A stretch of DNA of 64,000 nt, taken from contig CAWHCF010000022.1 in assembly GCA_963827655.1 (NCBI GenBank), positions 224,001 to 288,000 of the forward strand, written 5' to 3'. The position numbers and the translations under genes are program-made. This document shows, piece after piece, positions 1 to 60,874 of this stretch. Under the pieces are notes generated by a model that was not told the origin of the DNA, searched no databases, and saw only the letters and a list, made by a program, of their open reading frames with translations. Origin of the DNA: an uncultured Acidobacteriota bacterium (lineage in GTDB: Bacteria > Acidobacteriota > UBA6911). Numbering within the stretch: position 1 is the stretch's first letter; each line of letters opens with the position of its first letter.

Positions 1-614
1 ATAACCAGGCGCAGGGCGGCCTCCTGGCGCGGGTCCTTGACCCCGGTGGCGTCAAGGCCATCCAAGGTCCAGTAGTTGTCATCGCGGGCCCGCCCGACGA
101 AGCGGATGCTCTGCTGGTTTCCCTCGCCGGTGTTGATCGCGCCAGGCGCCAGCAACATGAGGGTGGCCCAATGCCGCCCATTCACAGGGATATCGCTGAT
201 CTGCTGCCCGCCGATGACGGTCCCGACCACCGCCGACGTCCTATCCAGGGGCTCGAGAACGCTCTCGACCGTGACCTGCGTATCCGTCGCGCTCACCGTC
301 ATTTCGATGTTCAGATTCCGGTTGTCGCCGACGCCTAACCGAACGTCTCTAATCGTTACCGACCTGAACCCTGTCATGCTGGCGGTGATGGAATACGCGC
401 CGACAGGAACCAGCGAGAAGGAGTAGGTGCCGATAACGCTGCTCAGAGCCTCGCGACGCCATCCTGTTTCCTGCGAAACCAGCTCCACCTTCGCACCCGG
501 GACGACCGCCCCGGAAGCATCCTTGACCGTCCCTGCGAGTGAGGCGCGGTCCACCTGGGCCCAGGCCGGATAGGCTGCCAACAGCACGAGTAATACAAGC
601 GCTTTTGCTTTCAT
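1..614 (-). CDS. TonB-dependent receptor, N-terminal part (runs off the window edge)
   Basis: Manual translation from ATG 614: MKAKALVLLVLLAAYPAWAQVDRASLAGTVKDASGAVVPGAKVELV... Signal peptide, carboxypeptidase-regulatory-like domain, then plug motif IPVNGRHWATLMLLAPG. Confidence 0.85.
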   Translation of the reverse strand, partial: MKAKALVLLVLLAAYPAWAQVDRASLAGTVKDASGAVVPGAKVELVSQETGWRREALSSVIGTYSFSLVPVGAYSITASMTGFRSVTIRDVRLGVGDNRNLNIEMTVSATDTQVTVESVLEPLDRTSAVVGTVIGGQQISDIPVNGRHWATLMLLAPGAINTGEGNQQSIRFVGRARDDNYWTLDGLDATGVKDPRQEAALRLV

Positions 615-1255
615 GAGGGAGATCTCCTGTCGAAACGCTGCCCCGGACTACCGGGAAAAGACGCCCCGAGCAGCGGCTTTCGGTTCACCTATTCGAAGCG
701 AGCGGCCGTGTCCTTAAGACAAAGAGCCGGTGATCGAACTGCTCACACACCTACTTTTTCGTAAGCGCGCACCGATAGCCAGGGATCTGATTGTTTTGCG
801 CGAAAAATATTTCTTTTCTGTGACGACAACTAGAATTTTTCGCGTCGCCGCCTTCGACCCCGAATGCGGATGGATACAGGTTTTACCGCCAGAAAGAATA
901 CGAGAGAGCTGTCTGCCAGGAGAGGATTGCTCGGCCCCGGGGATTGGAGGGGAATCAGGCGGATGAGTAGGTAAACCCGGGTGAATTTCTCCGTGGAGGT
1001 TGACCCGCGCTAGCATTGGGGGCATTCGGGTTTCTCTGAATCTGCGGACAGCTTACAGAATCAACGTGGCATGCAATCGGATTTGAGCGGAAGCCTCTCG
1101 ATTTCGGATCAAGCCGGGGCCGATTTCGCAGACTCCTCGCTGTGATGCTTGCCCGTTAGCGCTTCAAAGGATCAAGAAAGTTGCGTTTCGGTGCGGGTGG
1201 GAGAATAGCATAAGTTCGCCCGGATGGTCTGCCGAGATTTATCTCGGCGGCTGGG

Positions 1256-1362
1256 TCGTGCACCCATTTACGATTGACGATTGACGATTGACGATTGACG
1301 ATTTCGGAAGCTGGTTCCCGCTCATTTCAATCGTCAATCGTCAATCGTCAATCGTCAATCAA
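1256..1362. repeat. Palindromic heptamer element E1: (GACGATT)n-spacer-(AATCGTC)n
   Basis: Both arms visible in sequence; right arm overlaps the ADOP1 stop codon. Confidence 0.95.
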
Positions 1363-4050
1363 TCATGGCGCAGAGCCACCAGCGGATCCACCCTCGAGGC
1401 CCTTCGCGCCGGCAGATAACCCGCAAGGAGAGCGACGGCGGCCATCACCACCGTGGCTGCCGAGATCGTCGCCGGGTCGCCTGGCGTCAGTCCATACATT
1501 TGACTGGAGATCACGCGCCCGGCCGCCAGGGCGGCCGGAACCCCAAGGGCGGCGCCGATGAGCACGAGCACAAGCGTGTCCCACAACAAAAGCCGGAGCA
1601 CGCTGCCACGACCGGCGCCGAGCGCCATTCGTATGCCGATCTCGCCGGTCCGTCGCGTTACCGTATACGACATGACGCCATAGAGGCCGATCGAGGCAAG
1701 CAGCAGAGCCAGAAAACCGAAGGAACTTGAAAGCGTGACAAACAGGCGCTCGGCAAAAAGAGACTGATCAACCTGTTCCTCCAGCGTTCGGATGTCAAAA
1801 ACCGCCAGGTTCCTGTCGACTGCTTGTATCTCGCGTCGAACGGCGGAGACCAGAGCCGTCGGGTCGCCCGCGGTGCGCACGTGGAGTTTCAGATCGCCGA
1901 GCGGCATCGGAGACTGCAGGTACGGAACATAGACCATGGGAGGCGTCTCTTCCCGCACGCTGTTGTACTTCGTGTCCTTTACGACGCCGACAATCTCCAG
2001 GCTGGCCGGCGTCTGAGACCTCGTAATCCCAATCCGCCTTCCGACTGGATTCGCGCTGCCGAAATACTTGCGCGCCAGAGCCTCACTGACGACCGCTACC
2101 TTCGCCGACTTCTCGTTATCCTCCGGCCCGAACTCGCGCCCCATCAACACGGGAACGCCCATCGTTTGGAAGAACTTCGGTCCTACCAGGTTGGCGCCAG
2201 TCGCGATGTTTTCATCCCTACCTGGGGCGTATCCCTGAACCATCAGATTCGTTCGCCAGGAACCGCGAGTCAGCAGACTGAACCGCGCGATGCTGGCCAC
2301 GCGCACGCCGGGAATGGCATCGATCCGTTCGAGCAGGCGCCGGTACAGTTCCGCAAATTGCGAATTCTGGTAGCCGGCCAACGCGGGGCTGACCGTCAAT
2401 ACCAGGACGTTATCCCGATGGAATCCCACATCCACGCCCTTGAGATTCTGAAGGGTTCGTATCAACAGTCCAGCGCCTACGATCAGGATCAAAGAGACCG
2501 CGACCTGCAAGACGACGAGCGCTTTGCCCAGCCGAAGACGAGACATCCCAGCCAGAGTATGGGTCTGGTCTTTGATCGTGGTATTGACGTCCACTTTCGT
2601 CGCCTGAAGTGCGGGAGCCAACCCAAACAGAAGTCCGGTGAGTAAAGACACTAGCGAGGTAAATGCGAGTATGCGAGTGCTGGACTCGAACCTGATAACC
2701 AAAGGGAGCCCTTCGGACATCAGCAGCGAAGCCAAAACCCTGGTTCCCCAGGCAGCAAGGGCAAGGCCGAGCACTCCGCCGATCAATCCAAGGAGCACAC
2801 TTTCGGTCATCAGCTGCCGGACGAGACGCAAACGGCCGGCTCCCAAAGCGATGCGCACGCCGATCTCCTTCCTCCGGGAAACGGAGCGCGCGAGTTGCAA
2901 GCCGGCGACGTTCGCACAGGCAATCAGCAAAACCAGACCCACCACTGCCATCACCACCATGAGCGGCGTAGAGACCTGACGACGTATGGTTCCCAGTCCT
3001 CTTCCGGCCGGATCGAGCTCGATTCGACGCTGGTCCTCCGGCCTCTCCCGGGCTCGAGTCGGATCGCCGTCCCTCATCTCGGCCAGTGCGTGCCGATACG
3101 CCAGGTTGAGACCAGCCTGCGACTGTTCCCTGGGCACTGCCGGATCCAACCGGGCCACGACCTCCAGCCACCAGTAACCAGGATTATTCAGCGCCGGCAC
3201 GTCGAACTCCCCTTGCATCATCATGGGAACCCAGAAATCCGTGGCGTCGCCAACCTGGATGCCGAAAAAATCTGGCGGCGTCACTCCAATGATCGCGAAC
3301 GGCTTTGCGTTGAGCGCGATTCCCTTTCCCACCACCGCCGGGTCGAGCGCAAACCTCCGTTTCCAGTATCCATGGCTGATCACGGCTACCGGGTGTCCTC
3401 CGGGCACGCGATCGTCGTCCGCAGTGAAAGTGCGGCCGATCACCGGCTGGACGCCGAGGACGGTGAAAAAGCTTCCGGAGACGAGCTGCCCGCGGGCAAG
3501 CTCCGCCTGGCCATCGGCGGTTACGTTCAGCCGGAGCCCTGCAGACGCGAACATACCCCGGACGAGCTGCCGATCCCGCAGCCGCTCAAACGCAGGGTAG
3601 GAAAAGGCGGCGTTGGGTCTCCGGTCCTTGGGACTTACGTTCATGATCTGAACCAGCTCGCCCGGATCTTTGACCGGCAGCATCCTCAGCAGAACGGTAT
3701 CGATCACCGTGAAGATGGCGGTGTTGGCGCCAATACCGAGCGCCAGCGACAGCACCGCCGTGGCCGTGAATCCCGGGCTGCGCCTCAACATCCGGAACCC
3801 GTATTGCAAATCCTGAAACAGCTCTTCCAGCCAACGAAGCCCCCACATCTCGCGACTGACTTCTTGCAGTAAGGTTGGATTGCCAAATCCGCGCAAGGCG
3901 GTGTGACGCGCGTCATTCGCGAGACATGCCGGCTTCAAGGTTTTCCTGCGCCTTCATCTCGAGGTGGAAGCGCATCTCTTCGTCCAGCTCGCGGTCGAAT
4001 CGATCCCGTCGGACCAGAACCAGAAGTCTTTTCCAGAGGGTCTGGAACAT
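1359..4050 (-). CDS. ADOP family duplicated ABC permease 1 (2x MacB-PCD + FtsX); frameshift near 3920
   Basis: Start [33 protein letters not shown] at 4050 joins ORF 1359..3938. Motifs [44 protein letters not shown]. Confidence 0.92.
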
Positions 4051-4148
4051 CGTGCACCCATTGACGATTTACGATTTACGATTGACGATTTCAGAAGCTG
4101 GTTCCCGTTCTTTTCAATCGTCAATCGTAAATCGTAAATCGTCAATCA
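4051..4148. repeat. Palindromic heptamer element E2
   Basis: (GACGATT/TACGATT)n-spacer-(AATCGTC/AATCGTA)n; fills the ADOP2-ADOP1 gap; leader and spacer near-identical to E1. Confidence 0.95.
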
Positions 4149-6858
4149 TTCATACCTCAGTGCCGCCATTGGATCGATCCGCGAGGCCCTTCGGGCGGGC
4201 AGATACCCCGAGAGAATTGCCACCCCAAGCATCAGCAGGGTCGCCAGCACGATGCTTACCGAATCCGTCGGCTTCAAACCATAGAGGAAAGCTTCAATCA
4301 ATCGGGCCGAAGCCAGAGCCAAAGGGATACCGACTGCAATGCCGGCGCCTGCGAGAATCAAGACTTCGCGGATCACGAGCCACAGGACACCGGATTGCCG
4401 CGCTCCAAGCGCCATCCGAAGGCCGATTTCTCTGGTTCGTCGCACGACCGTGTAGGACATGATTCCGTATAGACCAATGCAGGCCATGAAGACGGCAAGC
4501 AGTCCGAACAAGCTGCATAACTTCGAGAGCAGCCGCTCGCGAACCAGTGATTGATTTACCTGGTCGTCCAGGGTCTTGAATGGCCCGATCTCGATATCGG
4601 GATGAGACTCGCGCAAGACCTGTCTGACCAGACCCGCCAGGGCAAGCGGGTTTTCAGAGGTCCGGACTTCGACCGAATTGAACTGGCTGGTTGTCTGGAA
4701 CAGGGGCAGATAGAACATACTGCGCGCCTCTTGCCTGAGGTCGTTGTACTTCGAGTCCTTCACGACACCCACGATCTCGACGGCCTGGCCTGGATCAAAC
4801 TGAGGTTTCGTCGAGATCCGGCGGCCCAGAGGGTTCTCGCCCGGAAAGAAAGTCCGCGAGAAAGTCTCGTTAACAATTGCGACCTTGGTCGAAGCCGCCG
4901 TGTCATGATTGGTAAAGCCCCGCCCAGTCAGCAGCGCCATCCCAACGGTGGCGAAGTATTTCGGCGACACGATATTGATTCGCGCGCCTAGCTCGGGCCC
5001 GGGCGGAGGTGTGTATCCTTCGATGGAAAGCGAGTTGACCAATTGGCCGCCGGCGAACAGGCCGATCAGCGAGAGGCTGGCCGAACGCACGCCTGGAATC
5101 TCGTGAAGTCGCTCCTCGAGCCGCCGGTACAGGCTGCTTCGCTGCTCGGATGGAACCGGGTGCATCTCCATATCGACCAGCAGGACGTTCGTCCGGTCGA
5201 AACCCACTTCGATACCCCGCAGGTTGTGAAGACTTCGAAGCAATAGTCCCGCGCCAACCAGAAGCAGGAGCGAAAGCGCGACCTGAGAGACAATCAGGAC
5301 TCTGCTGAAACGCTGCGACCGGCCGCCGGCGACCTGGCTATGAGAAACCGCGCTCAAAGACGGCATCACGTTTACCGCCGTCGCGCGGAAGGCAGGAACA
5401 AGGCCGAACAAAAGGCCGGTCATGGTCGAGACCAGCAGCGTGAACCACAGAACGCGAATGTCCGGACCAGCGTCCAGGACCAGCGAACCCGACGAATCAG
5501 AAATGAGGCTGACCAGCAGCGCGCTTCCGTATGCTGAAACGACGAGCCCCAGGGCTCCACCCAGGAGAGATATCAGCAGGCTTTCGGTGAGCAGCTGTCG
5601 CACGAGACGACCTCTTCCCGCACCAATAGCCAGACGCACCCCGATCTCCTTTTGCCGATAGGATGCGCGCGCCATCAGCAGATTGGCAATGTTGCAACAG
5701 GCAATCAGCAATACGACTCCGACGGTGAGCATCAGAATCTGCAACGGTCTCGAGAATCTCCGTCGAAGATAATCCAGTCCCCTGCTCCCGCTTTCAAAGT
5801 GCAGCGTGTAGTCGGTGACCTGGTGCTCCCGGCGAACGCTGGTTTGACCTCCCGCTGCTATCTCTTCAGCCAGTAACTGCTGATACAGGACCTTCATTGC
5901 CGCCAGGGCTTGCGCCTCGTTCACTCCCGGCTTCATTCGGCCGATTACCTGAATGAAGCTGCCGGTGATCCGTTTCAGAGACCCCGCCGGTATCCCATGG
6001 ACGATTGGAAGCCAGACCTCGGGCGACTCGCCTGCCGTGTCGCCAAAGAACTCGGGCGGCGCGACCCCCACAATCGTGAAAACCCGCTCTATAGCGTCTG
6101 GAGCGTAGCCGACCGTTGTGAGGAGACTCTGGCCAATGACGCCTGGATCACGGCCAAACTGGCGCTCCCAAAAACCATAGCTGATCACCGCAGCGGGCGC
6201 CGACTGCCCATCTTCATCGAAGGAAGAGAAAGTGCGTCCAATGTGAGCATTGATTCCGAGCACGAAAAAGTAGTTGGCAGACACGCGGGCGGTGCGGACA
6301 TGATCGAGTTGCGCGCCCGAACCAATAAGCGTGAAGCGCTTGTGCCCCTGTCCGCTGGTCGCCATCACTCCCGAAAACACTTGCTGGCGCGCCGCGAGCT
6401 GTCGATACAGAGGATAGGAGATGTACCAGGGCCCCCCTTTCTGCCGGGTGGTAAGGACAATCAACTGCTCCGGATTTGGGCACCGGGAGAGTCCGGATCA
6501 AGACCGCATTGATCAGGCTGAAGATTGCCGTGTTCGCCCCGATGCCCAGGGCTAGCGAGAGCACAGCCACCGTAGCAAAACCGGGACTGCGACGGAGCAT
6601 GCGCGCGCCGTAGCGGAGATCTTGAAGCAGCGATTCCAGCCAGCCCAGACCCCAGGTCTCGTGACTGATTTCCATCAGGCGGGTGGTGTTGCCAAACCGG
6701 CGCTGCGCCGCATATCGCGCGTCATCGGGAGATGCTCCGGATTCGAGGTTTTGCTGCGTCTTCATCTCGAGGTGAAAGCGCATCTCCTCGTCCAACTCGC
6801 GATCGAATCGGTCGCGTCGAATCAGATAATGGAGTTTCTTCCACAGGGTATCGAACAT
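4146..6858 (-). CDS. ADOP family duplicated permease 2; frameshift near 6480
   Basis: ORFs 6214..6858 (N-terminus MFDTLWKKL...[12 protein letters not shown]) and 4146..6464 (ends [15 protein letters not shown]). Confidence 0.92.
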
Positions 6859-6867
6859 CTATGTACT

Positions 6868-6941
6868 CATTGACGATTTACGATTGACGATTGACGACCT
6901 GGGCTGCTGTCTTTTCAATCGTCAATCGTCAATCGTCAATC
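6868..6941. repeat. Palindromic heptamer element E3
   Basis: Inverted tandem GACGATT arms between ADOP3 and ADOP2. Confidence 0.95.
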
Positions 6942-6946
6942 ATTTG

Positions 6947-9652
6947 TCATTCATGGCGCAGTGCGACCATCGGATCGACGCGGGATGCTCTTCTCGCCGG
7001 GAGGTAGCCTGCCAGCGCAGCAACCGCGACCATCAGCAATGCCGCCACGGCGATTGTGCCCGGGTCGCTCGGCGTAAGCCCAAACAGGAAGCTCGAGATT
7101 AATTGCGTGCCGGCGAGCGCCGCCGGAATTCCCATCGCAACCCCGATCAATACCAGGACCAGGACCTCACGCAGAATCAACCAGAGCACGTCCCGGCGCT
7201 CGGCGCCAAGCGCCATGCGAAGACCAATCTCGCCGGTTCTTCGTGTCACGGAGTACGCCATCAGGCCGTAGAGGCCGACGCACGAGAGCGCGACTGCAAG
7301 CAGGCCGAATGCGCTCGAAAGCTTGGCAAACAAACGTTCCTGGATAAGACTCGAATCCACCTGGTCGGCCAGCGTCGTGACCTCGAGTACGGGCAGATTC
7401 TTGTCAACCGCCTGGATCGCTTGACGGATCGAACCCGCCAGGGCGCTCGGGATTCCTGCCGTGCGCACCTCCAGCTCGGTCAGGGGAGCCAGGGACTGGA
7501 GGAACGGAAGATAAGTCATCGGTCGAGGCTCCTCACGCAGGCTGGTGTACTTCGCGTCTCTGACCACGCCCACGATCTCGATCTTGCCGCTGTTCTCGGG
7601 GCCGCCCAAACCGAATCTTCTTCCGATAGCGTTCTCGCTGCCGAAATAACGGCGCGCCATGCTTTCATTAACAACCGCGACCTTGGGCGCATTCTCGTTG
7701 TCATGCGGGGTGAACGCACGGCCCAGCACGGAGGGACATTCCCATAGTTTCGAAGTACGTTCGGCCCCACTGCGTTGGCAAAGGTATGCAGGGTCTCGTT
7801 CGGCCTGGGTGTGTAACCCTGCACCGAGATCTTGTTGCCCCAGGAGCCGCCGCCGAACAATCCCATAAAAGACAGGCTGGCCGAGCGGACACCCTGGACC
7901 GCTGCCACACGCTCGAGGAGTTGGGTGTAGAGATTCGCCAGGCGGACATCCTTATAGCCGGTCGCCCGGGCATCGATTCTCAATAGCAGAACGTTCTCCC
8001 GGTTGAAGCCTGGGTCCAGGCTTTTCAATTTCTGAAGGCTGCGCACAAAGAGGCCGGCCCCGACCAGCAGCAACAGGGAGAGCGCGACTTGCGCGACCAC
8101 GAGAGCCTTGCCCAGCCGTTGTTTCGACCGGCCGGCAGTCACAGTCCGCGCGTCCTCTTTGAGTGCGGGCGCGAGCTCGCCCTGTGTTGCGCGAAGGGCC
8201 GGCACCAGGCCAAACGTGATTCCGGCGAGCAGCGAAACCGTGAAAGTGAAAGCAAACACCCGAAGATTGGGATCGGTATCGAGTGGTGGGGGAGTGGGAC
8301 CCTGGGAGACAAGGGCAATCAGGATGCTCGCTCCCCAATAAGCAGAAAGCAGGCCGAGAGCCCCACCGATCAAGCTCATCAATACGCTCTCAGTAATGAA
8401 TTGCCGGACCAGGCGCATGCGACTCGCACCCAGGGCGAGCCGGACGCCCATCTCTCTCTGGCGGGCCGTCGAGCGCGCCAGCATCATGGAGGAGACGTTG
8501 GCGCAGGCAATCAGCAGCACCACGCCGACCACGGCCATCAGAATCTTCAGCGGCTGCGAAAACCTTTCGCGCAGTTCGGAAAACCCCGCGCTCCCCGGCG
8601 CAAGCTCGATTCTCTGTTCGAGAACCTGCTGCCGCCACCGAGGGTTCTCCATGCCGGCAACCGTTTGGGCCTGGATGTCGCCCGAAGACCAGAGCGGCGC
8701 TCGCCTGCGCCTGCTCGACGGTTACGCCCGGTTTCAACCGACCCATGATCTGCAGCCACGTGACACTGTGGCCTTTCCATAGCCAGCTGGGTGCCCGCGG
8801 CGCCATCGTGAGCGGCATCCAGAGATCGGGAGACTCGCCCACGGACTCACCGAAGAACTCCGGCGGCGCCACCCCAATGATGGTGAATAAGGTGTCCTGC
8901 GCCGTGAATGTTTTCCCCACTACGTGCGGGTCGCCCCCAAACCTTCGCTGCCAGTAGCCATAGCTGATCACGGCCAGGGGCTGCTCGCCGGGAACCCGGG
9001 CTTCATCGGCTGTGAACGTACGTCCAACGATGGCGTCGACCCCCAGCACGGAAAAATAATTACCGGAAACCAGTCTTCTCTCGACCAACTCCGCCTGGGG
9101 CTCTCCCGGGCCGCCTATTACGATATTCACCTTCTGCACCGAACTTGATGCCAACGCGCCCGCGAAGCTCTCCGTCTGATCGCGAAAGTCTTTGTAAGCG
9201 GTATAGGAGAACATCCTGTCTCGCCCACCCGCGGAGACGCTGCTGATGGTGACCAGCTGTTGCGGATTCTTGACCGGCAGCTTTTCGAGGAGCAGCGCGT
9301 CGATCAGGCTGAAGATGGCGGTATTGGCGCCGATGCCGAGCGCCAGCGAGAGCACGGCCGCCGCGGTGAAGCCGGGGCTGCGGCGCAGCATGCGAAGGCC
9401 GTAGCGCAGGTCTTGCAACAGGGACTCGACTGAAGAAGAAAACCAGACTTCGCGACTGGTTTCTCGCAGCAGAGGCTGATTGCCGAACCGACGCATCGCG
9501 GAATAGTGCGCCTCTTCCGGGGGCATACCTGCGTCGAGATTCTCCCTGGTCTTCATCGCAAGATGGAACTGCATCTCTTCGTCCAGCTCGCGGTCGAATC
9601 GGTTTCGGCGAAAAAGAAACAGGAGTTTTTTCCAAAGGATATCGAACATCAT
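6947..9652 (-). CDS. ADOP family duplicated permease 3; frameshifts near 8670 and 7740-7760
   Basis: ORFs 8390..9652, 7516..8652 and 6947..7729 are consecutive ADOP segments. Confidence 0.9.
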
Positions 9653-9657
9653 GTTAT

Positions 9658-9748
9658 CGATTGACGATTGACGATTGACAATTGACGATTGAAGCTACCG
9701 GTTGTCATGGTTTCAAATCGTCAATCGTCAATCGTAAATCGTCAATCG
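9658..9748. repeat. Palindromic heptamer element E4
   Basis: Inverted tandem GACGATT arms between ADOP4 and ADOP3. Confidence 0.95.
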
Positions 9749-9750
9749 CC

Positions 9751-12400
9751 TCATTCTCGCCGTAAGGCCACGACAGGATCCACCGCCGGTTGCGCGGCGC
9801 GCAGGCACAAAACTCGCAGCCCCGCCGACCAAAGCGATCAAGAGCAGTACGCTGATCAGAGTGGCTGGATCTGTCGGACTCACAGTGGAGGCCAGGAACA
9901 TCGCCAGGGGGCCTGTGGCCAGCGCAGCTATCGCCAGACCAATGACTCCTCCCACGCCGAGCAGAATCAGGCCATCCTTCAGAACCATCCACAGCACCAG
10001 CCCCCGCGATGCGCCCAGCGCCATCCGAATGCCGATCTCCGAGGTTCGCCGGCTCACCGCGTAGCTCATCACTCCGTAAAGTCCCACCATTGCGAGCAGC
10101 ATACCCAATCCACCCAGGCTCCCCAACACGAGGGCGCCGATTCGGCTGGGCCAGAATGCCCGGGAGACATGGTCACTCATGGTTTGAACCTCCACATCAG
10201 CCGAACGATCCAGGTCCGCGATGGCCCTTTTCGCCGGAGCCAGAGCCGCTGCCGGCGGGCCCGCGGTGCGAAGCAGGAGACTCCTGACCCGGCGTACCTG
10301 CTGAGGTTGTAAATACGACAGGTAGACCTGTGGTTCCGGCGCTTCTCCCGGCGAAAGGTACTTGCTGTCTGCAACGACACCCACGATCTCGAGGAATCGT
10401 CTGTCGCGGCCTTCGCCCTGGACGAGCCGCTTGCCGAGCGGATCGGCGTCCGGCACCGACTTGTCAGAACAGCGCCTGATAAAAGCCTCGTTGACGATCG
10501 CGACCGGAGCCACACCCTCGCGGTCGCCTGCCCCGAATTCCCGTCCGCGTAACACGGGTATCCCTAGCGTCTCAAAGTAACGGCGGCCGACGACGTTCAG
10601 GTAGGTTGCGACTCCAGGCCCATCCTCTTGCCCTTCCAGCCAGAGTCGGTCTCCCGATGTTGCAAAGCTGAGCGGAACGATGCCGGCACAGCTGGCCGAC
10701 TGAGCGCCGGGTACGGCTTCCAGCCGGTCCATGGCCTGTTCGAAAAACAACTTCTCCTGCTCGCCGGTGTGCTGCCCCCGGATCAGATTGACGCTGAGGA
10801 CCAGCGTGTGATCGACATCGAAACCGGGACGGGCGCCGCCGATTTCGAGCAGACTGCGAACAAACAAGCCCGCCGTCACGAGCAGCACCACTGAAACCGC
10901 GACCTGGCCGGCCACCAGGAAATTGCGGAGAGTAAACCGGCGATGACCGAATTCCTGAGCTTCGTCCTTGAGCGCGGGAACAAGACGCGAACGGGTGGCT
11001 TGAAGCGCCGGGACGAGGCCGCACAACAGCGAGGTGACCATCGCCAGCGACAGCGCGTAAAGCAACAGGCGAAAATCAGGCTCGAGTTGAAAGGTCATTC
11101 CCGAATCCGGTATCTGGATCCGATTCAGAACCATGTTGAGCCAGAGATTGAACAGCAGCGCGACACCGGATGCCAGGAGCGCAAGCACCATGGTTTCCAC
11201 TAATAGCTGTTGAACCAGCCGGCGACGGCTGGCCCCGAGCGCGAGCCTCATGGCAATTTCGCGGCGGCGGCTCACTCCGCGCGCCAACAACATGGACGCC
11301 ACATTGGCGCAAGCGATGACGAATACCAGGCTGACCACAAGGAACAACAGGCCGGCCAGGAACCAGACCTCGGCGTCATATTTCTCCAGCTTTTGAATTC
11401 CGGACATGGCGCGCGCGGCGGCCTGGCCGAAGTCCTTGTTCTGCTGCGGGTGTGCCTGCTCGAGACGCCTGGCGGCGGCCGTCAAGGCCGCCTCAGCCTG
11501 GCGCCGGCTGAGACCGGCGGGAAGCCGGCCAATTACGATAAAGAGGTTTTGATGGCGGTCCTGGAGCCCCGGGACGAGCAGTTCGCTCAGAGGCAGGTAT
11601 AGCTCCGGCGCTTCACCGAATTCCGCAACGGAGCGGTATTTCTCGGGCAATATCCCTATTACGGTGAACGGGCGGCCGTTTAGAGTCAGGTCACGGCCGA
11701 TGATGCCGGGCTCACTTCCTAGTCGCCGCTGCCAGAATTGGTGGCTCAACACCACCAGCTGGGGCTTCTGTTCCGGCTTTGCTTCCGCGTCGCGGAAGGT
11801 ACGCCCTCTGGCCGCCTGGACGCCAAGCACGTCGAAGAAGTTGCTTGTCACCAGATGGCTGCGAACAGTCCGGGGCACAGTCCCGGCGCTCCAGCTCTCC
11901 TGACTCAGCGTATACGCTGCCAGCCCATCGAAGATCCTGTTTTCCTGAAGATCGCGATAATTCGGGTACGACATCTGCCCGGATCGACCTGCTTCAATTC
12001 TCAGCAAGCGCCCCGGGTCGCGCGCTGACAGGTCCTTGAGAAAGACTTCATTGAACAGGTTGAAGATTGCCGTGTTCACGCCGATGCCCAGCGCCAGCGA
12101 GAGGATGGCCACCAGAGTGAAGCCAGGACTCTTTCGCAATGTCCGCGCGGAATAACGAAAGTCCCGCAGCAAGCTTTCCAGCGAAGTAAATCCCCACGTG
12201 TCGCGGCTGACCTCACGCAGGCGTGTCAGGTTCCCGAAAGCGCGTTGGGCCGCATAGTGCGCCTCTTCGGGAGAAGCACCCGTCTCCAGCTTCTCCCGAG
12301 TCTTCATCTCGATGTGGAAGCGCATCTCCTCATCCAACTCGCGGTCAAACCGGTCACGTCGCAGCAGAAGGAGTAGTCGCTTTAACAGGGTTCGGAACAT
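9751..12400 (-). CDS. ADOP family duplicated permease 4; frameshift near 9785
   Basis: ORF 9728..12400. The family C-terminus VDPVVALRRE-stop lies in another frame and ends at 9751. Confidence 0.92.
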
Positions 12401-12408
12401 CTCATTTC

Positions 12409-12498
12409 CGATTTACGATTGACGATTTACGATTGACGATTGAAAAGCAGCGATGATCGATGCTTCAATCGTCAATCGTCAATCGTAAATCGTCAATC
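12409..12498. repeat. Palindromic heptamer element E5
   Basis: Inverted tandem GACGATT arms between padR and ADOP4. Confidence 0.95.
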
Positions 12499-12499
12499 C

Positions 12500-12823
12500 T
12501 CACGCGGTTTGGATCACGCGGGTGATCGCCTGAATCACCCGATCGAACTCCGAAAGCTCGACTGTGAGCTGCTTTCGTCCAGCCGGCGTGAGCCGGTAAT
12601 AGCGTGCCCGGCGGTTGTTTACCGAATGTCCCCAATCCGCCGCAACCCAGCCTTTGATCAGCAGCCGTTGCAGCGCCGGATACAGCGATCCCTCCTCAAC
12701 CTGGAGGACGTCGTCCGATATCTGCTGGATGTGTTGCGCAATTCCGTAGCCATGCATGACCCCGCGCGTGAGCGTCTTCAAAATCAGCATCTCCAGCGTT
12801 CCGGGCAGAAGCTCCGTTTTCAT
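12500..12823 (-). CDS. PadR family transcriptional regulator (Acidobacterial ADOP-associated type)
   Basis: MKTELLPGTLEMLILKTL...HGYGIAQHI...EEGSLYPALQRL...NNRRARYYRLT; GGAGG RBS 10 nt upstream of ATG 12823. Confidence 0.95.
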   Translation of the reverse strand: MKTELLPGTLEMLILKTLTRGVMHGYGIAQHIQQISDDVLQVEEGSLYPALQRLLIKGWVAADWGHSVNNRRARYYRLTPAGRKQLTVELSEFDRVIQAITRVIQTA

Positions 12824-12834
12824 CGAGTGGGTTC

Positions 12835-12885
12835 CTCCCATAGATTATCTTTGGGAGTATGATTCAAAGAACGAAACAGTGTCAA
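12835..12885 (-). promoter_or_regulatory. Sigma70-type promoter with overlapping palindromic operator (probable PadR site)
   Basis: Minus strand TTGACA (12885-12880), 18 bp, CATACT (12861-12856). Inverted repeat CTCCCATAGA-TTA-TCTTTGGGAG at 12835..12857. Confidence 0.75.
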
Positions 12886-12926
12886 CAGGAGTTCAATTAT
12901 TTTGCATAGCTCATCGATGGGAGATT

Positions 12927-12960
12927 CGATTGACGATTTACGATTGACGATTGACGATTG
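12927..12960. repeat. Single-arm heptamer element E6 (GACGATT)n
   Basis: cgattgacgatttacgattgacgattgacgattg with no adjacent opposite arm. Confidence 0.9.
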
Positions 12961-12990
12961 AACTAGCGGCTTGGCGGTGGGGCGTCTGTC

Positions 12991-14715
12991 TTACCGCGGG
13001 CGAAGGATGAGTTCCCTTTGAGCGGCGGACCAGCCCAGCAGCCGCTGGGTGTACGGATCGATGCGCTCGGGAAAGCGGGCTGAAAGATCGTTTCGTTCTT
13101 CGGGATCCAACCTTAGATCGAAGAGCTTCGTTCGTCCCGCGCCCAGCTCGTAAATGAATTTCCATTCCCGATCGCGCAGGCCCAGGAATCCCAGAGAGTA
13201 GTCGGTGAAGAAGAGAGCCATTCGCTCCTGCGCCTCCAGCAAGGACTGACCCTGGTACGAAGCCGGGAGCGGAAGACCCAGCAGATCCAGTATTGTGGGC
13301 GCAATATCGATCAGGCTGGCTACCCGGCTTACGCGGCGAGCTTCGCAGACGCCAGGCGCCGCCAGGATGAAGGGCACACGCACATTTTCGTCGTACACGA
13401 GAAACGTGTGTCCATAATTACCTTCGTGCTGGCCGAAGGCCTCACCATGGTCACCGAAAATCACAAACAGGGTGTTTCGATCCCGGCGTCGTTGTGCCAA
13501 CCCCTCCAGGAGCGTCCCTAACGCCGCATCAGCATCGAAGAGCGCGTTTCGATAGCGGCCTGTCTCGTCGTGTTCCGGAAATGGACCCTCGCCTGATGAC
13601 TCATAGGGATGATGTCCCGCGATCGGAAGATAGGTGACGAAAAACGGCTGGTCCGCCGGGATCGCGTCAATCCAGGTGAGAATCCGGCGCACCGCGGACG
13701 TTTCGTCGATACCAAAGCTGGAGTCGTGCTCGCCTCCGATGTCACCCGCGTCCTCCAGCGTGTGGAAACCCCGATTGCGAATGATCGCATTCATCCCCAG
13801 GTACATGAATCGTCCCGAGTGGAACAGAGCGGTCCGGTATCCGGCGCCTGCAAGAACGGATGCAATCGAAGGATAATTCACGCCTTCGTAGGTCCGAGGC
13901 TCGGTGTCGACCGCAGGGTAGACCGAGCACAGCACGGAAAACAGACCCTTGATACTTTCGGGATAGACTGCGTAAGCGTTCTCGAAAAGTACTGCCTCAC
14001 GGGCCAGTCTGGTCAGGTGCGGCATTGGATCTTCAACCGCGCCATAGGGCCGCAGGTACCTGGCTCCGGCGGATTCGAGAATCACGAGGACGACGTTGCG
14101 ACCCGCGGCGGCGCCTCGATAGCTTGTAAGGTCTTCCGAGTCCCTGGTGCCGCCGGGACTCGCCCGCCACTCGGCGACAAGCCGTTTCGCTTCGACGCGC
14201 GGGACCGCGGTGGTAATGAGTACCGCTAAAACGTTGCGATCAAGCCCGAGGGTCTCGATGCGCCGGCTGGCGCTGATGCCGAACGGAACACAGATGAGCG
14301 CCACGACGGCCGACAGGGCAAAGACACGTGGCGGGACCCAGCGCGCCAGGAGCGGAAAGAGAGCGCCGGCAAGGAAAACCAGGAGAATCAGCGCCAGGTT
14401 CTCCCACCGCAAGTGGTACGCGATAGAGTCGGCGAGCGGCGCGCCGGCGGCGCGCAGCACCGGCCAGGTCAACGGTGTCGACAGCACGCGAGTCACCGGG
14501 ACGTTGATGGCCGTGTAAAGGACGATAGTCGCGTATGCGCTCCACGCAATTGAAGGTCGCCGCAGCCCGCGATCGATTGCGGCGAACAGAAGCGCAACCA
14601 GAAGGTCCTGCCAGAGATACGCTGCCGGCGTCCACAATGAAACGGGTATATCGCGCCCGGCCAGAATCAACATCTTCGCCAGCGCAAATACACCGAACAG
14701 GCTCGCAGCTCTCAC
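12991..14715 (-). CDS. Membrane-anchored LtaS/MdoB-like alkaline-phosphatase-superfamily transferase (sulfatase fold)
   Basis: About 5 N-terminal TM helices, NVVLVILES, GHHPY, FGDHGEAFGQH, DIAPTILDLLG; no CxPxR sulfatase motif. Confidence 0.75.
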   Translation of the reverse strand: MRAASLFGVFALAKMLILAGRDIPVSLWTPAAYLWQDLLVALLFAAIDRGLRRPSIAWSAYATIVLYTAINVPVTRVLSTPLTWPVLRAAGAPLADSIAYHLRWENLALILLVFLAGALFPLLARWVPPRVFALSAVVALICVPFGISASRRIETLGLDRNVLAVLITTAVPRVEAKRLVAEWRASPGGTRDSEDLTSYRGAAAGRNVVLVILESAGARYLRPYGAVEDPMPHLTRLAREAVLFENAYAVYPESIKGLFSVLCSVYPAVDTEPRTYEGVNYPSIASVLAGAGYRTALFHSGRFMYLGMNAIIRNRGFHTLEDAGDIGGEHDSSFGIDETSAVRRILTWIDAIPADQPFFVTYLPIAGHHPYESSGEGPFPEHDETGRYRNALFDADAALGTLLEGLAQRRRDRNTLFVIFGDHGEAFGQHEGNYGHTFLVYDENVRVPFILAAPGVCEARRVSRVASLIDIAPTILDLLGLPLPASYQGQSLLEAQERMALFFTDYSLGFLGLRDREWKFIYELGAGRTKLFDLRLDPEERNDLSARFPERIDPYTQRLLGWSAAQRELILRPR

Positions 14716-15838: not shown

Positions 15839-15854
15839 CGGCGGCTCTGGTCAA

Positions 15855-16087
15855 GGGTTCGCGCAGAAATAAGTTCGCATTCTGCTGCAGGCCCCCAGGC
15901 CCGCTGGCGAGGCGCGAGCGACGATGCGTACCCGGTGCGGTACGTGAGGAGCGAGCAACAAAGCCAGCGGGCCTGCGGGCCGCAGCCCGAAGGGGCGCGA
16001 TCCTCAGCATGCTTAGCAAACAGAAACCGGTTCATGATTGACCACCGACCCTCGCGCCAGAATGTGAAGTTATTTCTGCGCGAGCCC
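15855..16087. mobile_element. MITE-like non-autonomous element, copy 1 (233 bp)
   Basis: Terminal inverted repeats GGGTTCGCGCAGAAATAA / TTATTTCTGCGCGAGCCC; near-identical copy at 46301. Confidence 0.9.
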
Positions 16088-16686: not shown

Positions 16687-16795
16687 ATGACAAATGAAAA
16701 ATGACAAATGACCAATGTGGGCAGTCTTACGGATCCCGTGCCAGCCGGCCGGCTTCCCATTTGTCATTTTTCATTTTTCATCTTTCATTTGTCAT
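16687..16795. repeat. Palindromic heptamer element, (ATGACAA/ATGAAAA)n...(TTGTCAT/TTTTCAT)n
   Basis: Visible upstream of ndh. Confidence 0.9.
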
Positions 16796-16834
16796 TCCTT
16801 GAATTCACCGTTCGAGAAGTACACGCTTGGGACG

Positions 16835-18282: not shown

Positions 18283-18385
18283 AGCTGTCAGCGCTCAGCC
18301 CTCAGCGCCAGCGCACCATCGAGGTGAAACGCATGCCGACCGCACTCATCCAAAGCTGAACGCTGACCGCTGATCGCTGAAAGCT
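18283..18385. repeat. Degenerate palindromic heptamer element, (TCAGC..)n...(GCTGA..)n
   Basis: agctgtcagcgctcagccctcagc ... gctgaacgctgaccgctgatcgctgaaagct. Confidence 0.8.
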
Positions 18386-19445: not shown

Positions 19446-19671
19446 CGGTGATGGCCCGCACGGACTATCCGCTCGACCACTCACAGAGCCGGGGAAAAAT
19501 GCCCTGCCTTTGTATTCGATCCGGCTCTCCAAACGTTTTTGGGTACCTGCTCCTTGTCAACTAATCCCAAACGTCGCTAAGATTTATCTTGAGGTTGACT
19601 CTCAGGTACACCGTTTGCTCTCCGTAAAAAGGTATTCCTGCACGCAGTCAACGAGAATAAGGAGGCAAGTG

Positions 19672-29582: not shown

Positions 29583-29658
29583 CAGGATTTAGGATCTAGG
29601 ATTTAGGCTGGGGAGTCGTTTCTGAATCCAAATCTAGATCCTGAAATCCTAAATCCTG
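29583..29658. repeat. Palindromic heptamer element, (AGGATTT)n...(AAATCCT)n
   Basis: Fills the gap between two convergent stop codons. Confidence 0.9.
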
Positions 29659-34101: not shown

Positions 34102-34188
34102 ATTCTCAGTGTCTTCGAGTCTTCGTGCCTGGTGCGGCGGGAAAAAAGCCAACCTCTAGGACACGAAGACTCGAAGAAACGCCAAGAA
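34102..34188. repeat. Palindromic octamer element, (CTTCGTGT)n...(ACACGAAG)n
   Basis: Abuts the TBDR stop; closely related to the copy at 37641. Confidence 0.88.
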
Positions 34189-60067: not shown

Positions 60068-60145
60068 ATCAGCTTTCAGCAGTCAGCTTTCAGCAGTCAG
60101 CTGTCAGTAGTCAGCTGTTGGCTGACAGCTGATAGCTGATAGCTG
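60068..60145. repeat. Palindromic heptamer element, (TCAGC..)n...(GCTGA..)n
   Basis: Fills the gap between the ATPase stop and the permease start. Confidence 0.9.
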
Positions 60146-60874
60146 TTAGCTTCCTCCCGTGACCCGGAAGAAAATTTCCTCGAGATTCGTGTCGCCTTGA
60201 AGCTCCGGGAGGCTGCGCGAAATCGCCTCGAGCGAATCGTGGATGATCTTACGACCTTCCTTCAGGATAAGGACCCGGTCGCACAATTCCTCGACCAGAT
60301 GCAGAAGATGAGAGCTCACAATGATAGACGCGCCTGCGCGGGCGCGATCGAGAATCGTGCTTTTCATCCGGCGAATACCGATGGGATCCAATCCGGTAAG
60401 CGGTTCATCGAACAGCAGCGCCCTGGGCGAGTGCAGCAGTCCGCACGCAATGACCAGTTTCTGCTTCATCCCGCGGGACAGTTCCGAGGGAAGCGCATCT
60501 CGTTTTTCCCACAGCTCCAGCTCGTCCAGCAGATTCTTCGCATCCTGTTCGTAGCGCTCGACACCGTAGATGCGCGCGGTGAACTGAAGGTGCTCCATGA
60601 CCGTGAGGTAGTCGAAGAGCCGCGGCTCGTCCGGCATGAACGACGCCAGTCGCTTGGCCGAGAGCGGGTCATCCCGCAGGGAGTGGCCGCAAATACGAAT
60701 ATCCCCCCGCGTCGGCGGAATGATCCCCACGACGCAGCGCAGCGTGGTGGTCTTGCCGGCGCCGTTAGGCCCGACCAGACCCAGAACTTCTCCGGGTTCC
60801 ACGCAAAAGGACAGGTCGGTTACCGCCGCGAAGGAGCCGTAAATCTTGGTTAGTCCATCGATCTCAATCATCAA
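60146..60874 (-). CDS. ABC transporter ATP-binding protein
   Basis: GPNGAGKTT, LSRGMKQK, LLFDEP, SSH. Confidence 0.95.
   Translation of the reverse strand: MMIEIDGLTKIYGSFAAVTDLSFCVEPGEVLGLVGPNGAGKTTTLRCVVGIIPPTRGDIRICGHSLRDDPLSAKRLASFMPDEPRLFDYLTVMEHLQFTARIYGVERYEQDAKNLLDELELWEKRDALPSELSRGMKQKLVIACGLLHSPRALLFDEPLTGLDPIGIRRMKSTILDRARAGASIIVSSHLLHLVEELCDRVLILKEGRKIIHDSLEAISRSLPELQGDTNLEEIFFRVTGGS

What the first reader, a model, noticed from the sequence alone, without database searches (positions are those of the whole stretch)
1256..12960. PadR-ADOP array with a palindromic heptamer element at every gene junction
Seen: padR and four diverged ADOP permeases are separated by (GACGATT)n-spacer-(AATCGTC)n elements (E1-E5, plus single-arm E6). 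Each fills nearly the whole intergenic gap, two overlap stop codons, and this heptamer occurs nowhere else in the window. Known: ADOP orphan permeases paired with PadR are an Acidobacterial family without an adjacent ATPase. Inference: the one-gene-per-element layout is cassette-like. The elements may be recombination or insertion sites that build the array, or roughly 30-bp mRNA stems that process or tune the polycistron.
Basis: partly seen in the sequence, partly recalled or inferred. Interest (0 to 1): 0.8.

Follow-up and report, generated by a model that had tools for sequence, protein, structure and literature searches.

The report
Heptamer-repeat hairpins between permease genes
Five long hairpin-forming DNA elements built from a repeated seven-base unit separate the genes of a regulator-plus-four-permease operon, but similar elements also sit between many unrelated genes in this genome and in other bacteria, so they look like a general intergenic repeat and not a gene-cassette system.

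Summary
On the minus strand, padR and four ADOP permease genes are separated by five palindromes (E1-E5) whose 26-36-nt arms are (G/T)ACGATT heptamers. A sixth, single arm lies upstream of padR.

The elements are not special to this array.
- The window holds 10 more palindromes and about 8 single-arm sites built from other 7-8-nt tandem units, at unrelated junctions.
None is beside padR and one is beside an ADOP-like gene.
- Very similar GACGATT palindromes sit in alternative-complex-III and lpxI loci, and related ones in nuo and rmlA loci.
- No recombinase and no attC-like core was found.

Synonymous sites beside the elements are near saturation, yet the arms stay almost identical, and E1 and E2 share loop and flank. 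So the elements are copied or homogenised independently of the genes.

Best reading: a local lineage of a widespread class of tandem-repeat-armed intergenic palindromes (REP/STRR-like). In the operon mRNA they would form strong intercistronic stems. The cassette-recombination reading is not supported.

The parts
12500..12841 (-). padR, Acidobacterial PadR-family regulator. The true start is probably the second ATG at 12823, which is preceded by GGGAGG.
   Evidence: TIGR03433 148.7 bits against a cutoff of 101.8; the match starts at residue 13. Sequence read.
9751..12400 (-). ADOP1 permease. A frameshift lies about 20 codons before the true stop; the mechanical ORF runs on to 9728, inside the arm.
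   Evidence: TIGR03434 796.3 bits, model positions 1-792 of 803. The family-typical C-terminus ...VDPVVALRRE* is in another frame.
6947..9652 (-). ADOP2 permease, in three ORF pieces (two frameshifts).
   Evidence: Pieces cover TIGR03434 positions 1-240, 249-537 and 546-803. Frames shown.
4146..6858 (-). ADOP3 permease, with one frameshift at a G6 run near 6437.
1359..4050 (-). ADOP4 permease, with one frameshift in the N-terminal prefix domain near 3930.
   Evidence: TIGR03434 971.8 bits. Frames shown.
1266..1360 (-). E1: heptamer palindrome after ADOP4. It is followed by the same 13-nt flank as E2, but no gene follows.
   Evidence: 32-nt arms, 100% complementary. RNA fold -71.2 kcal/mol, z -10.8. 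92% identical to E2 over 88 nt.
4060..4146 (-). E2: heptamer palindrome between ADOP3 and ADOP4.
   Evidence: 31-nt arms, 100% complementary. RNA fold -52.8 kcal/mol, z -8.0.
6869..6941 (-). E3: heptamer palindrome between ADOP2 and ADOP3.
   Evidence: 26-nt arms, 96% complementary. RNA fold -41.5 kcal/mol, z -6.2.
9658..9748 (-). E4: heptamer palindrome between ADOP1 and ADOP2.
   Evidence: 33-nt arms, 94% complementary. RNA fold -54.6 kcal/mol, z -7.8.
12404..12498 (-). E5: heptamer palindrome between padR and ADOP1.
   Evidence: 35-36-nt arms, 89-91% complementary. RNA fold -58.1 kcal/mol, z -7.6.
12927..12961 (-). E6: single heptamer arm, 5.0 copies. It lies about 42 nt upstream of the promoter-like site of padR.
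   Evidence: Tandem repeat call. It forms no hairpin, z -0.5.
12856..12885 (-). Promoter-like site TTGACA-18-CATACT upstream of padR.
   Evidence: Consensus scan, 10 of 12 matches. This is a match only, not evidence of function.
16687..16796 (.). Same class, other unit: (ATGACAA)n palindrome in a divergent intergenic region.
   Evidence: DNA fold z -6.0.
18288..18385 (.). Same class, other unit: (TCAGCSC)n palindrome between an oxidoreductase gene and a TPR gene.
   Evidence: DNA fold z -3.3.
29584..29657 (.). Same class, other unit: (AGGATTT)n palindrome filling the gap between two convergent genes, 3 and 4 nt from their stop codons.
   Evidence: DNA fold z -5.0.
60069..60151 (.). Same class, other unit: (TCAGCWG)n palindrome between an ABC ATPase gene and its permease gene. 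It overlaps the stop codon and ends 7 nt before the start codon.
   Evidence: DNA fold z -7.1.
34104..34177 (.). Same class: one copy of the octamer (TCTTCGTG)n palindrome family. Other palindromic copies are at 37643-37713, 44187-44256, 48572-48633, 52960-53022 and 55465-55525. Single arms are at 32485-32516, 40382-40405 and 50675-50698.
   Evidence: 31 matches to the octamer dimer against 0.73 expected. Copies share loops and flanks (families D9, D11, D13). Folds.

Best explanation
E1-E6 are one local lineage of a widespread class of intergenic palindromes whose arms are short tandem repeats. The class resembles REP/BIME elements and cyanobacterial heptamer repeats. It is not an ADOP-specific device.

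Origin (inferred). Heptamer arrays grow by replication slippage. An inverted copy of an array, made by fold-back or template switching, turns it into a hairpin-forming palindrome. Finished elements are then copied or converted to nearby junctions. Selection on stop codons and ribosome-binding sites confines them to the space between genes, so in a compact operon they 'fill the gap'.

Effect (inferred, about 40% likely to be a selected function). The five genes are probably transcribed from the promoter-like site upstream of padR. If so, each element forms a 26-35-bp stem that starts 0-7 nt after a stop codon and ends 12-13 nt before the next start codon. Such stems should block 3' exonucleases, offer double-strand-specific (RNase III-type) cleavage sites, and hinder ribosomes that terminate right at their base, as described for E. 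coli REPs. That would set the relative expression of padR and each ADOP cistron.

The 28-33-bp identical arms lie about 2.7-2.8 kb apart. They could also serve passively as crossover points for gain or loss of ADOP units.
For: Shown:
1. The hairpins are real and strong.
2. The class is general within the window. Ten more palindromes and about eight single-arm sites are built from other 7-8-nt units, at divergent, convergent and co-directional junctions of unrelated genes. The octamer family gives 31 matches against 0.73 expected, and its copies share loops and flanks.
3. The same heptamer is general across genomes. My own arithmetic for uniform base composition expects about 4 by chance. The loci come from Acidobacteriota, Bacteroidota, Verrucomicrobiota, Chloroflexota, Planctomycetota, Armatimonadota and Cyanobacteria. 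0 of 124 are beside padR and 1 of 124 is beside an ADOP-like gene. 29 of 124 have an inverted partner arm within 170 nt.
4. Eleven of 12 folded regions from 8 loci give z -5.2 to -17.6. They sit at junctions of alternative complex III, nuo, MoxR/DUF58, MscS/rmlA, lpxI and a three-gene Caldilineales cluster. Arm-to-start distances are again 10-12 nt in L022 and L070.
5. Heptamer repeats dominate the short tandem repeats in the flanks of these loci: 24 arrays of period 7, against 9, 1, 3 and 1 for periods 4, 6, 8 and 11, in 264.6 kb. They fall into 17 unit classes. This agrees with the published finding that heptanucleotide repeats are the commonest long simple repeats, attributed to polymerase slippage (Mrazek 2007, as summarised in the Introduction of PMC4679880).
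6. The elements evolve apart from the genes. Third-codon-position identity in the 40 codons before the stops of ADOP2-4 is 0.40-0.47. In the first 39 codons of ADOP1, 3 and 4 it is 0.54-0.69. Yet 25 of 29 right-arm columns are invariant across all six copies, and E1 and E2 are 92% identical over 88 nt including the loop.
7. Stop codons lying next to REP stems are reported to stall ribosomes and trigger mRNA cleavage in E. coli (passage in PMC12306157).
Against: - No RNA data exist for this organism, so co-transcription, processing and stability effects are all inferred.
- Sense-strand RNA folds are only 0.3-3.7 kcal/mol better than antisense in E1-E5. They are worse in three other oriented members of the class. 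So nothing shows selection at the RNA level as opposed to a symmetric DNA palindrome.
- A crude ORF-based tally of array orientation relative to neighbouring genes shows no polarity: 23, 23, 26 and 19.
- Six same-unit elements at six consecutive junctions, in a window where other junctions use other units, is more order than random seeding gives. It is explained here only by assumed local copying.
- No relative of this padR-ADOP array could be fetched, so presence or absence of the elements in orthologous arrays is unknown.
Confidence: 0.55

Rival explanations
1. Functionless genomic repeats. The elements are by-products of slippage, template switching and copying that persist wherever they do no harm. 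Any hairpin in the mRNA is tolerated, not used.
For: - The class occurs at all junction types, including divergent promoter regions (16687-16796, 48566-48643).
- Units are diverse, with 17 heptamer classes in the locus flanks.
- Arrays show no orientation bias relative to genes and no sense-strand folding advantage.
- 95 of 124 arrays elsewhere are solo direct repeats with no partner arm.
Against: - The arms stay almost invariant, 25 of 29 columns across six copies, beside coding DNA whose synonymous sites are saturated. This needs continuing homogenisation or selection.
- By my reading, 9 of 13 oriented palindromes in the window start within about 10 nt of a stop codon.
- Stems of 26-35 bp inside an operon transcript are unlikely to have no effect on expression.
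Confidence: 0.25
2. Array-building repeats (the weak form of the reader's idea). The near-identical arms act as portable homology for unequal crossing-over or gene conversion. ADOP units are then duplicated, lost or exchanged between elements.
For: - The arms offer 26-33 bp of near-perfect identity spaced about 2.7-2.8 kb apart.
- E1 and E2, which flank ADOP4 on both sides, share the loop (21 of 25 nt) and a 13-nt right flank that ends at the ADOP4 start codon. The genes beside them are much more diverged.
- REP-mediated tandem duplications are known in enterobacteria (recalled, not checked here).
Against: - The paralogues are old: 33-60% protein identity and saturated synonymous sites. No recent unit turnover is visible.
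- ADOP4's closest paralogue is ADOP2, not a neighbour.
- The same elements sit in single-copy housekeeping operons elsewhere.
- Strain comparison was not possible.
Confidence: 0.1
3. PadR operators. The heptamer arms are DNA binding sites of the adjacent PadR regulator, repeated at each gene to control it.
For: - PadR-family proteins bind inverted repeats (family knowledge, recalled).
- Within this window the unit is confined to the padR operon.
- A half element (E6) lies upstream of padR.
Against: - 0 of 124 arrays of the same heptamer elsewhere are beside a padR gene.
- E6 lies about 42-75 nt upstream of the -35-like hexamer. That is not where a repressor operator usually sits.
- Operators between cistrons, 12 nt before start codons, have no obvious role.
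- A separate small palindrome, CTCCCA-N11-TGGGAG (12835-12857), lies over the padR ribosome-binding region and is a more conventional candidate.
- Other units build the same architecture at genes without PadR.
Confidence: 0.05
4. Integron-like site-specific recombination sites. Each element is an attC-like site and each ADOP gene a mobile cassette.
For: One element per gene, all genes in one orientation, and little room for promoters between genes.
Against: - No integrase or other recombinase among the 59 distinct ORFs scanned.
- 0 of 5 elements has the attC core motif or its inverse (recalled consensus).
- The genes are paralogues of one family, not unrelated cassettes.
- Here the arms are conserved and the loops vary, the reverse of attC sites.
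- Identical elements occur in housekeeping operons.
Confidence: 0.03

Closest known systems
REP / BIME elements of enterobacteria and the GTAG- and CGTC-tagged REP super-families (Di Nocera et al. 2013, PMC3733652; passages read)
   Same: - Dispersed intergenic palindromes, mostly just downstream of coding regions and plausibly transcribed as RNA hairpins.
- Several families coexist in one genome.
- Proposed roles are mRNA stabilisation, termination, and interference with translation termination when close to a stop codon (passage in PMC12306157).
- Each heptamer here happens to contain CGTC.
   Different: - REP stems are 5-13 bp with loops of 2-20 nt and an unpaired GTAG or CGTC end tag (Table 1 of PMC3733652).
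- Here the arms are 26-36 nt, made of 3-5 tandem heptamers, with loops of 19-28 nt. CGTC is paired and repeated, not an end tag.
- No RAYT transposase gene was seen in the window.
TAACTGA intergenic heptamer repeats of Beggiatoaceae, Cyanobacteria and Bacteroidetes (MacGregor 2015, PMC4679880; abstract and Introduction read)
   Same: - Tandem heptamers in intergenic DNA with 2-6 copies per set.
- Often only a few nucleotides upstream of start codons.
- A scattered, cross-phylum distribution and no known mechanism.
   Different: - The unit is different.
- Those repeats are direct: 169 direct sets and a single indirect one in the reference genome.
- Here 5 of 6 sets are inverted pairs that form hairpins.
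Long simple sequence repeats with heptanucleotide units (Mrazek et al. 2007, seen only as summarised in PMC4679880) and cyanobacterial STRR heptamer repeats (recalled, not checked)
   Same: - Period-7 tandem repeats are the commonest class of long simple repeat and are ascribed to polymerase slippage.
- Period 7 also dominates in the window and in the fetched loci.
   Different: I found no description of a systematic inverted-pair arrangement that fills intercistronic gaps in the papers I could search.
RNase III processing hairpins between genes of a polycistron, e.g. the phage T7 early region (recalled, not checked)
   Same: One long stem-loop between consecutive cistrons of a single transcript. 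After cleavage it leaves stabilising stems at the mRNA ends.
   Different: Those sites have internal bulges and are experimentally mapped. Here cleavage is only a prediction from stem length and perfection.
Integron attC sites and cassette arrays
   Same: One imperfect palindrome per gene, with the genes co-oriented.
   Different: No integrase, no core sites, paralogous genes instead of unrelated ones, and conserved arms with variable loops.

Membership tests
ADOP family duplicated permease (TIGR03434) | Profile score above the curated cutoff of 622.3 bits | tested here: met
   ADOP1 796.3, ADOP3 main piece 799.0 and ADOP4 971.8 bits. ADOP2 is split into three pieces (283.0, 316.8, 349.7 bits) that cover model positions 1-240, 249-537 and 546-803.
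Acidobacterial PadR regulator (TIGR03433) | Profile score above the curated cutoff of 101.8 bits | tested here: met
   148.7 bits, model positions 2-100 of 101.
REP (GTAG/CGTC-tagged; PMC3733652 Table 1) | Stem of 5-13 bp (GTAG type) or 8-9 bp (CGTC type) | tested here: not met
   Arms are 26-36 nt.
REP (GTAG/CGTC-tagged; PMC3733652 Table 1) | Unpaired GTAG or CGTC tetranucleotide at one end | tested here: not met
   CGTC occurs once in every heptamer, inside the paired arms. No unpaired end tag is present (sequences).
REP (GTAG/CGTC-tagged; PMC3733652 Table 1) | Loop of 2-20 nt (GTAG type) or 4-5 nt (CGTC type) | tested here: not met
   Spacers are 19-28 nt by the arm definitions. Only the shortest definitions of E3 and E5 fall inside the GTAG range.
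REPIN / RAYT system | A REP-associated tyrosine transposase gene in the genome, flanked by the repeats | tested here: inconclusive
   None among the 59 distinct window ORFs scanned. The rest of the genome was not available.
Integron cassette array | Integron integrase gene beside the array | tested here: not met
   The flanking genes are a sulfatase-like gene, a desaturase and an S-layer-like fragment. No integrase family hit was found in the window.
Integron cassette array | attC core sites at the element ends (consensus recalled from memory) | tested here: not met
   0 of 5 elements, each taken with 25-nt flanks, holds the core motif or its inverse.
Integron cassette array | Cassettes carry unrelated genes | tested here: not met
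   All four genes belong to one family.
MITE | Terminal inverted repeats with target-site duplications, and many dispersed copies | tested here: inconclusive
   Inverted arms are present and copies are dispersed in other genomes. No consistent flanking direct repeat is seen at E1-E5. No empty site was available for comparison.
Intrinsic (Rho-independent) terminator | Short G+C-rich stem followed by a T run | tested here: not met
   None of the 22 terminator-like sites in 1-16000 coincides with E1-E6. No T run follows the arms.
Heptanucleotide long simple sequence repeat | Head-to-tail copies of a 7-nt unit, longer than chance | tested here: met
   Eleven arms of 3.9-5.4 copies with 87-100% matches. 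Enrichment shown.
TAACTGA-type upstream heptamer repeats (PMC4679880) | Direct repeats of that unit just upstream of start codons | tested here: not met
   The unit is different and the arrangement inverted. Only the position near start codons (12-13 nt) is similar.
PadR operator | Specific binding by the cognate PadR protein | not testable with these tools
   Only context is available: 0 of 124 arrays elsewhere are beside padR.

The most novel reading that the evidence does not exclude
Tandem-repeat-armed palindromes are an undescribed, cross-phylum class of self-generating 'operon punctuation'. They arise from heptamer or octamer slippage followed by inverted copying. They spread locally as unit-specific lineages. 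They have been co-opted as intercistronic RNA stems that are cleaved or act as barriers, so that each cistron of a polycistron is tuned separately. On this reading, the six GACGATT copies of the padR-ADOP operon are one locally amplified lineage. That lineage individually gates padR and each ADOP permease, and it also provides the crossover points through which ADOP units are gained and lost.
Probability: 0.2. Interest if true: 0.6.

Novelty: new variant of a known kind. Interest (0 to 1): 0.4.

Why it matters
If the class is real and functional, it would be a simple and widespread way for bacteria outside the model groups to insulate or tune genes inside operons. These groups include Acidobacteriota, Chloroflexota, Bacteroidota and Verrucomicrobiota. 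It would also show regulatory hairpins arising de novo from simple repeats.

For the ADOP/PadR system specifically, the result is sobering. The striking one-element-per-gene layout says little about how these unexplained permease arrays are built or controlled.

There is also a practical point. Repeats of this kind, together with the indel errors seen throughout this window, can mislead gene calling. An example is the ADOP1 ORF, which runs on into an arm.

Tried and rejected
- Rfam: no family reached its gathering score in the whole window. The only sub-threshold hit in 1-16000 was a plant microRNA model on E4 (28.5 bits against 59), which is a generic hairpin match.
- Internal promoters: the scan found one weak site using a heptamer as its -35 element, in E5 only. 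My own reading of E1-E4 found no matching -10 element, so I dropped promoters-in-elements.
- Sense against antisense RNA stability, as a test for RNA-level selection: no consistent difference.
- Array orientation relative to neighbouring genes in 80 loci: no polarity. The ORF calls were crude, so this is only weak evidence.
- A special cross-phylum meaning for the (G/T)ACGATT unit itself: rejected as unnecessary. Heptamer arrays of 17 unit classes occur in the flanks of the same loci, and this unit accounts for 3 of 24.
- Recent gene conversion of the coding DNA next to the elements: not supported. Third-position identity is 0.40-0.69.
- Paralogy as the cause of same-unit arrays at consecutive junctions elsewhere: not needed. 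The two consecutive L017 genes, each followed by an array, are not paralogues (best BLASTP E 0.09).
- The window's own locus, or a close relative of it, among the 124 fetched loci: absent. Only the repeat arrays themselves match.
- Literature: exact-string search for dimers of the heptamer found 0 papers. Searches on ADOP/PadR and on Acidobacteria intergenic palindromes found nothing on these elements.
- One search failed on two non-ORF coordinate pairs. These were dropped and the search was rerun.


Full report
**1. What is there**

The region is a minus-strand gene run (frames):
- padR, 12841-12500, TIGR03433 at 148.7 bits
- ADOP1, 12400 to about 9751
- ADOP2, 9652-6947
- ADOP3, 6858-4146
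- ADOP4, 4050-1359

All four permeases match TIGR03434 and carry an N-terminal permease-prefix domain.

GACGATT occurs 38 times in the window against 11.9 +/- 3.1 expected. Of these, 31 lie in six clusters. Five clusters are inverted pairs with arms of 26-36 nt, 89-100% complementarity and spacers of 19-28 nt. As RNA of the coding strand they fold at -41.5 to -71.2 kcal/mol, z -6.2 to -10.8. The sixth cluster, E6, is a lone arm of five heptamers. It lies between the stop codon of a sulfatase-like gene and a promoter-like site (TTGACA-18-CATACT) upstream of padR.

On the coding strand every junction has the same layout:
- stop codon
- 0-7 nt
- (TTGACGA/TTTACGA) x 3-4
- loop
- (AATCGTC/AATCGTA) x 3-5
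- 12-13 nt
- ATG

- Seven isolated copies of the heptamer do occur elsewhere in the window, at about chance level.
- The apparent run of the ADOP1 ORF into an arm is caused by a frameshift. The family-typical C-terminus and its stop are in another frame, 5 nt before the arm.
- All four ADOP genes have frameshifts, but so do at least five unrelated genes in the window: TamB, a TonB-dependent receptor, a TPR protein, an Omp85-like gene and a desaturase. I read these as assembly indels, not decay.

**2. The elements are not specific to the array: evidence inside the window**

Tandem-repeat and inverted-repeat scans of the other 51 kb show the same architecture with other units.

Heptamer palindromes (DNA folds z -3.3 to -7.1):
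- (ATGACAA)n at 16687-16796, in a divergent region.
- (TCAGCSC)n at 18288-18385.
- (AGGATTT)n at 29584-29657, between convergent genes and 3 and 4 nt from the two stop codons.
- (TCAGCWG)n at 60069-60151, between an ABC ATPase gene and its permease gene. It overlaps the stop codon and ends 7 nt before the start codon.

An octamer family, (TCTTCGTG)n, gives 31 matches against 0.73 expected. It forms six palindromes and about eight single-arm or weak sites between 15.8 and 61 kb. Its copies share loops and flanks, so whole elements have been copied (families D9, D11, D13).

By my own count over an approximate gene map, roughly 19 of about 40 junctions in the window carry such an element. The padR-ADOP operon stands out only in that all six of its junction sites use the same unit.

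**3. Evidence from other genomes**

About 4 hits would be expected by chance for uniform composition (my arithmetic). The loci come from Acidobacteriota, Bacteroidota, Verrucomicrobiota, Chloroflexota, Planctomycetota, Armatimonadota, Cyanobacteria and others.

- tblastn with the window's PadR and ADOP proteins found 0 PadR matches and 1 ADOP-like match (L028, 28% identity) among the 124 loci. Only 80 loci carry up to 2 kb of flank; the other 44 hold 346-837 nt.
- 29 of 124 arrays have an inverted partner within 170 nt: 17 in the window's orientation and 12 in the opposite one. The other 95 are solo by a strict criterion.
- I then chose 17 loci that showed palindromes or consecutive arrays and scanned 47 of their ORFs against Pfam.
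- The elements lie between ActC and ActD of alternative complex III (L070), nuoC and nuoD (L014), MoxR and DUF58 (L038), and an MscS-like gene and rmlA (L022). Others lie near rplN and rplP (L069), after lpxI (L040), and at two successive junctions of a three-gene cluster in a Caldilineales genome (L039).
- Of 12 such regions from 8 loci, 11 fold with z -5.2 to -17.6.
- L070 and the second element of L040 have almost the window's design: three or four GACGATT units per arm and a loop of about 23 nt.
- Arm-to-start distances of 10-12 nt recur in L022 and L070. I take this spacing to be the footprint that a ribosome-binding site must keep free, which would also explain why elements 'fill the gap'.
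- None of the loci overlaps the window's own locus.

**4. The unit itself is probably not special**

In 264.6 kb of locus flanks, period-7 arrays of at least three perfect copies number 24. Periods 4, 6, 8 and 11 give 9, 1, 3 and 1. The 24 arrays fall into 17 unit classes, and this unit accounts for 3 (overlapping loci cause slight double counting). Many arrays abut arrays of other heptamers.

This matches the published picture that heptanucleotide repeats are the commonest long simple repeats, possibly because about 7 nt interact with the polymerase during slippage (Mrazek 2007, as summarised in the Introduction of PMC4679880).

**5. Relation to the genes**

The ADOP paralogues are old, at 33-60% protein identity. 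Third-codon-position identity is 0.40-0.47 in the last 40 codons of ADOP2-4. It is 0.54-0.69 in the first 39 codons of ADOP1, 3 and 4 (my ADOP2 N-terminal alignment was out of register and is not used).

In contrast, 25 of 29 right-arm columns are invariant in all six copies. E1 and E2 are 92% identical over 88 nt including the loop. They also share a 13-nt right flank that stops at the ADOP4 start codon.

So the arms are either kept or continually homogenised. At least one whole element has been copied or converted more recently than the genes diverged.

**6. Tests of specific mechanisms**

- Integron-like recombination. No integrase or transposase family among 59 distinct ORFs scanned. 0 of 5 elements has an attC-type core (recalled consensus). 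The genes are paralogues.
- Terminators. None of the 22 terminator-like sites coincides with an element, and no T run follows the arms.
- PadR operator. No association with padR elsewhere. E6 lies well upstream of the promoter-like site. A different small palindrome covers the padR ribosome-binding region.
- Known RNA families. None.
- RNA-level selection. Not detectable from the asymmetry between sense and antisense folds, nor from array orientation.
- REP membership. Stem, loop and tag criteria of PMC3733652 Table 1 (passages read) are not met.

**7. Most likely mechanism**

Shown:
- Strong palindromes sit at every junction.
- The class is general in this genome and in distant phyla.
- The elements evolve independently of the flanking genes.

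Inferred:
- The elements arise from slippage-grown arrays that acquire an inverted copy and then spread locally.
- Transcribed from the padR promoter, they give five long intercistronic stems.
- A stem that starts 0-7 nt after a stop codon is in the position where E. coli REPs are reported to stall terminating ribosomes and provoke mRNA cleavage (passage in PMC12306157).
- Perfect stems of 26-35 bp are also natural substrates for double-strand-specific RNases and barriers to 3' exonucleases (established knowledge of REP and RNase III; recalled).

I put 0.55 on the overall classification and origin. I put about 0.4 on a selected RNA-level role.

**8. What stayed unchecked**

- Orthologous padR-ADOP arrays could not be fetched.
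- No supplements were consulted.
- Gene orientation in the loci rests on simple ORF calls, validated by Pfam only for the 17 chosen loci.

**9. Verdict**

The cassette interpretation is not supported. The mRNA-stem interpretation is plausible but untested. The finding is best filed as a new variant of known intergenic repeat classes, of moderate interest.

Noticed in passing
window 18435-20187, 20703-26938, 34404-37545, 14712-15838 and all four ADOP genes: Many genes are split or fused by frameshifts. TamB is in four or more pieces, and its last part runs into POTRA domains in a single ORF. A TonB-dependent receptor, a TPR protein and a fatty-acid desaturase are each in two pieces. One ADOP3 shift lies at a G6 run. 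This looks like indel error in a long-read assembly.
   Followed up: partly
window 15807-60936 (about 14 sites, e.g. 34104-34177, 44187-44256, 48572-48633, 52960-53022): A dispersed octamer-repeat (TCTTCGTG)n palindrome family: 31 matches against 0.73 expected. Its copies share loops and flanks. It is absent from the padR-ADOP operon.
   Followed up: partly
window 15853-16091 and 46299-46536: A stretch of about 240 nt is present twice, 30.4 kb apart, at 94-99% identity. It includes a G+C-rich 19-nt inverted repeat with a 54-nt spacer. It has no Rfam match and I did not identify it.
   Followed up: partly
window 12835-12857: A small palindrome, CTCCCA-N11-TGGGAG, overlaps the GGGAGG ribosome-binding sequence of padR. 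The padR start is more likely the second ATG, at 12823. The palindrome could be the real operator or a stem that hides the ribosome-binding site.
   Followed up: no
window 1266-1303, 4060-4090 and the other left arms: On the coding strand each TTGACGA unit contains TGA. Because 7 is not a multiple of 3, three units place stop codons in all three frames right after each gene. In L040 the lpxI ORF actually ends on such a TGA inside the arm.
   Followed up: no
window 54353-54792: About five tandem copies of a 69-nt unit (62-77% identical to the reference copy) lie inside a 480-aa ORF of no known family (53986-55428, minus strand).
   Followed up: no
window 27248-27288: A near-perfect 20-nt palindrome with a 1-nt spacer lies between two convergent genes. 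It is not built from tandem repeats.
   Followed up: no
window 39607-40254 (minus strand): This ORF matches the NpmA-type 16S rRNA (adenine-1408) methyltransferase family (PF24675, 201 bits). Known members of that family confer aminoglycoside resistance.
   Followed up: no
L009, L027, L030, L036, L041, L044, L099, L109, L110 (around position 2000 or 300): (G/T)ACGATT arrays in other genomes often directly abut arrays of different heptamers. Repeat units seem to change along a single tract.
   Followed up: no
L017 2000-2020 and 3115-3135: In a Verrucomicrobiia contig, two consecutive non-paralogous genes are each followed, 4 nt after the stop codon, by three TACGATT units with no inverted partner. 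The genes share only a prepilin-like N-terminal motif.
   Followed up: partly
L005, L014, L020, L038, L085, L094, L105, L106, L116: A second palindrome type has the heptamers in the opposite order (AATCGTA...TACGATT) around an inner GAATAGA/TCTATTC stem. It recurs mainly in Pyrinomonadaceae-type Acidobacteriota. L020 has two copies, with z -13 and -17.6.
   Followed up: partly
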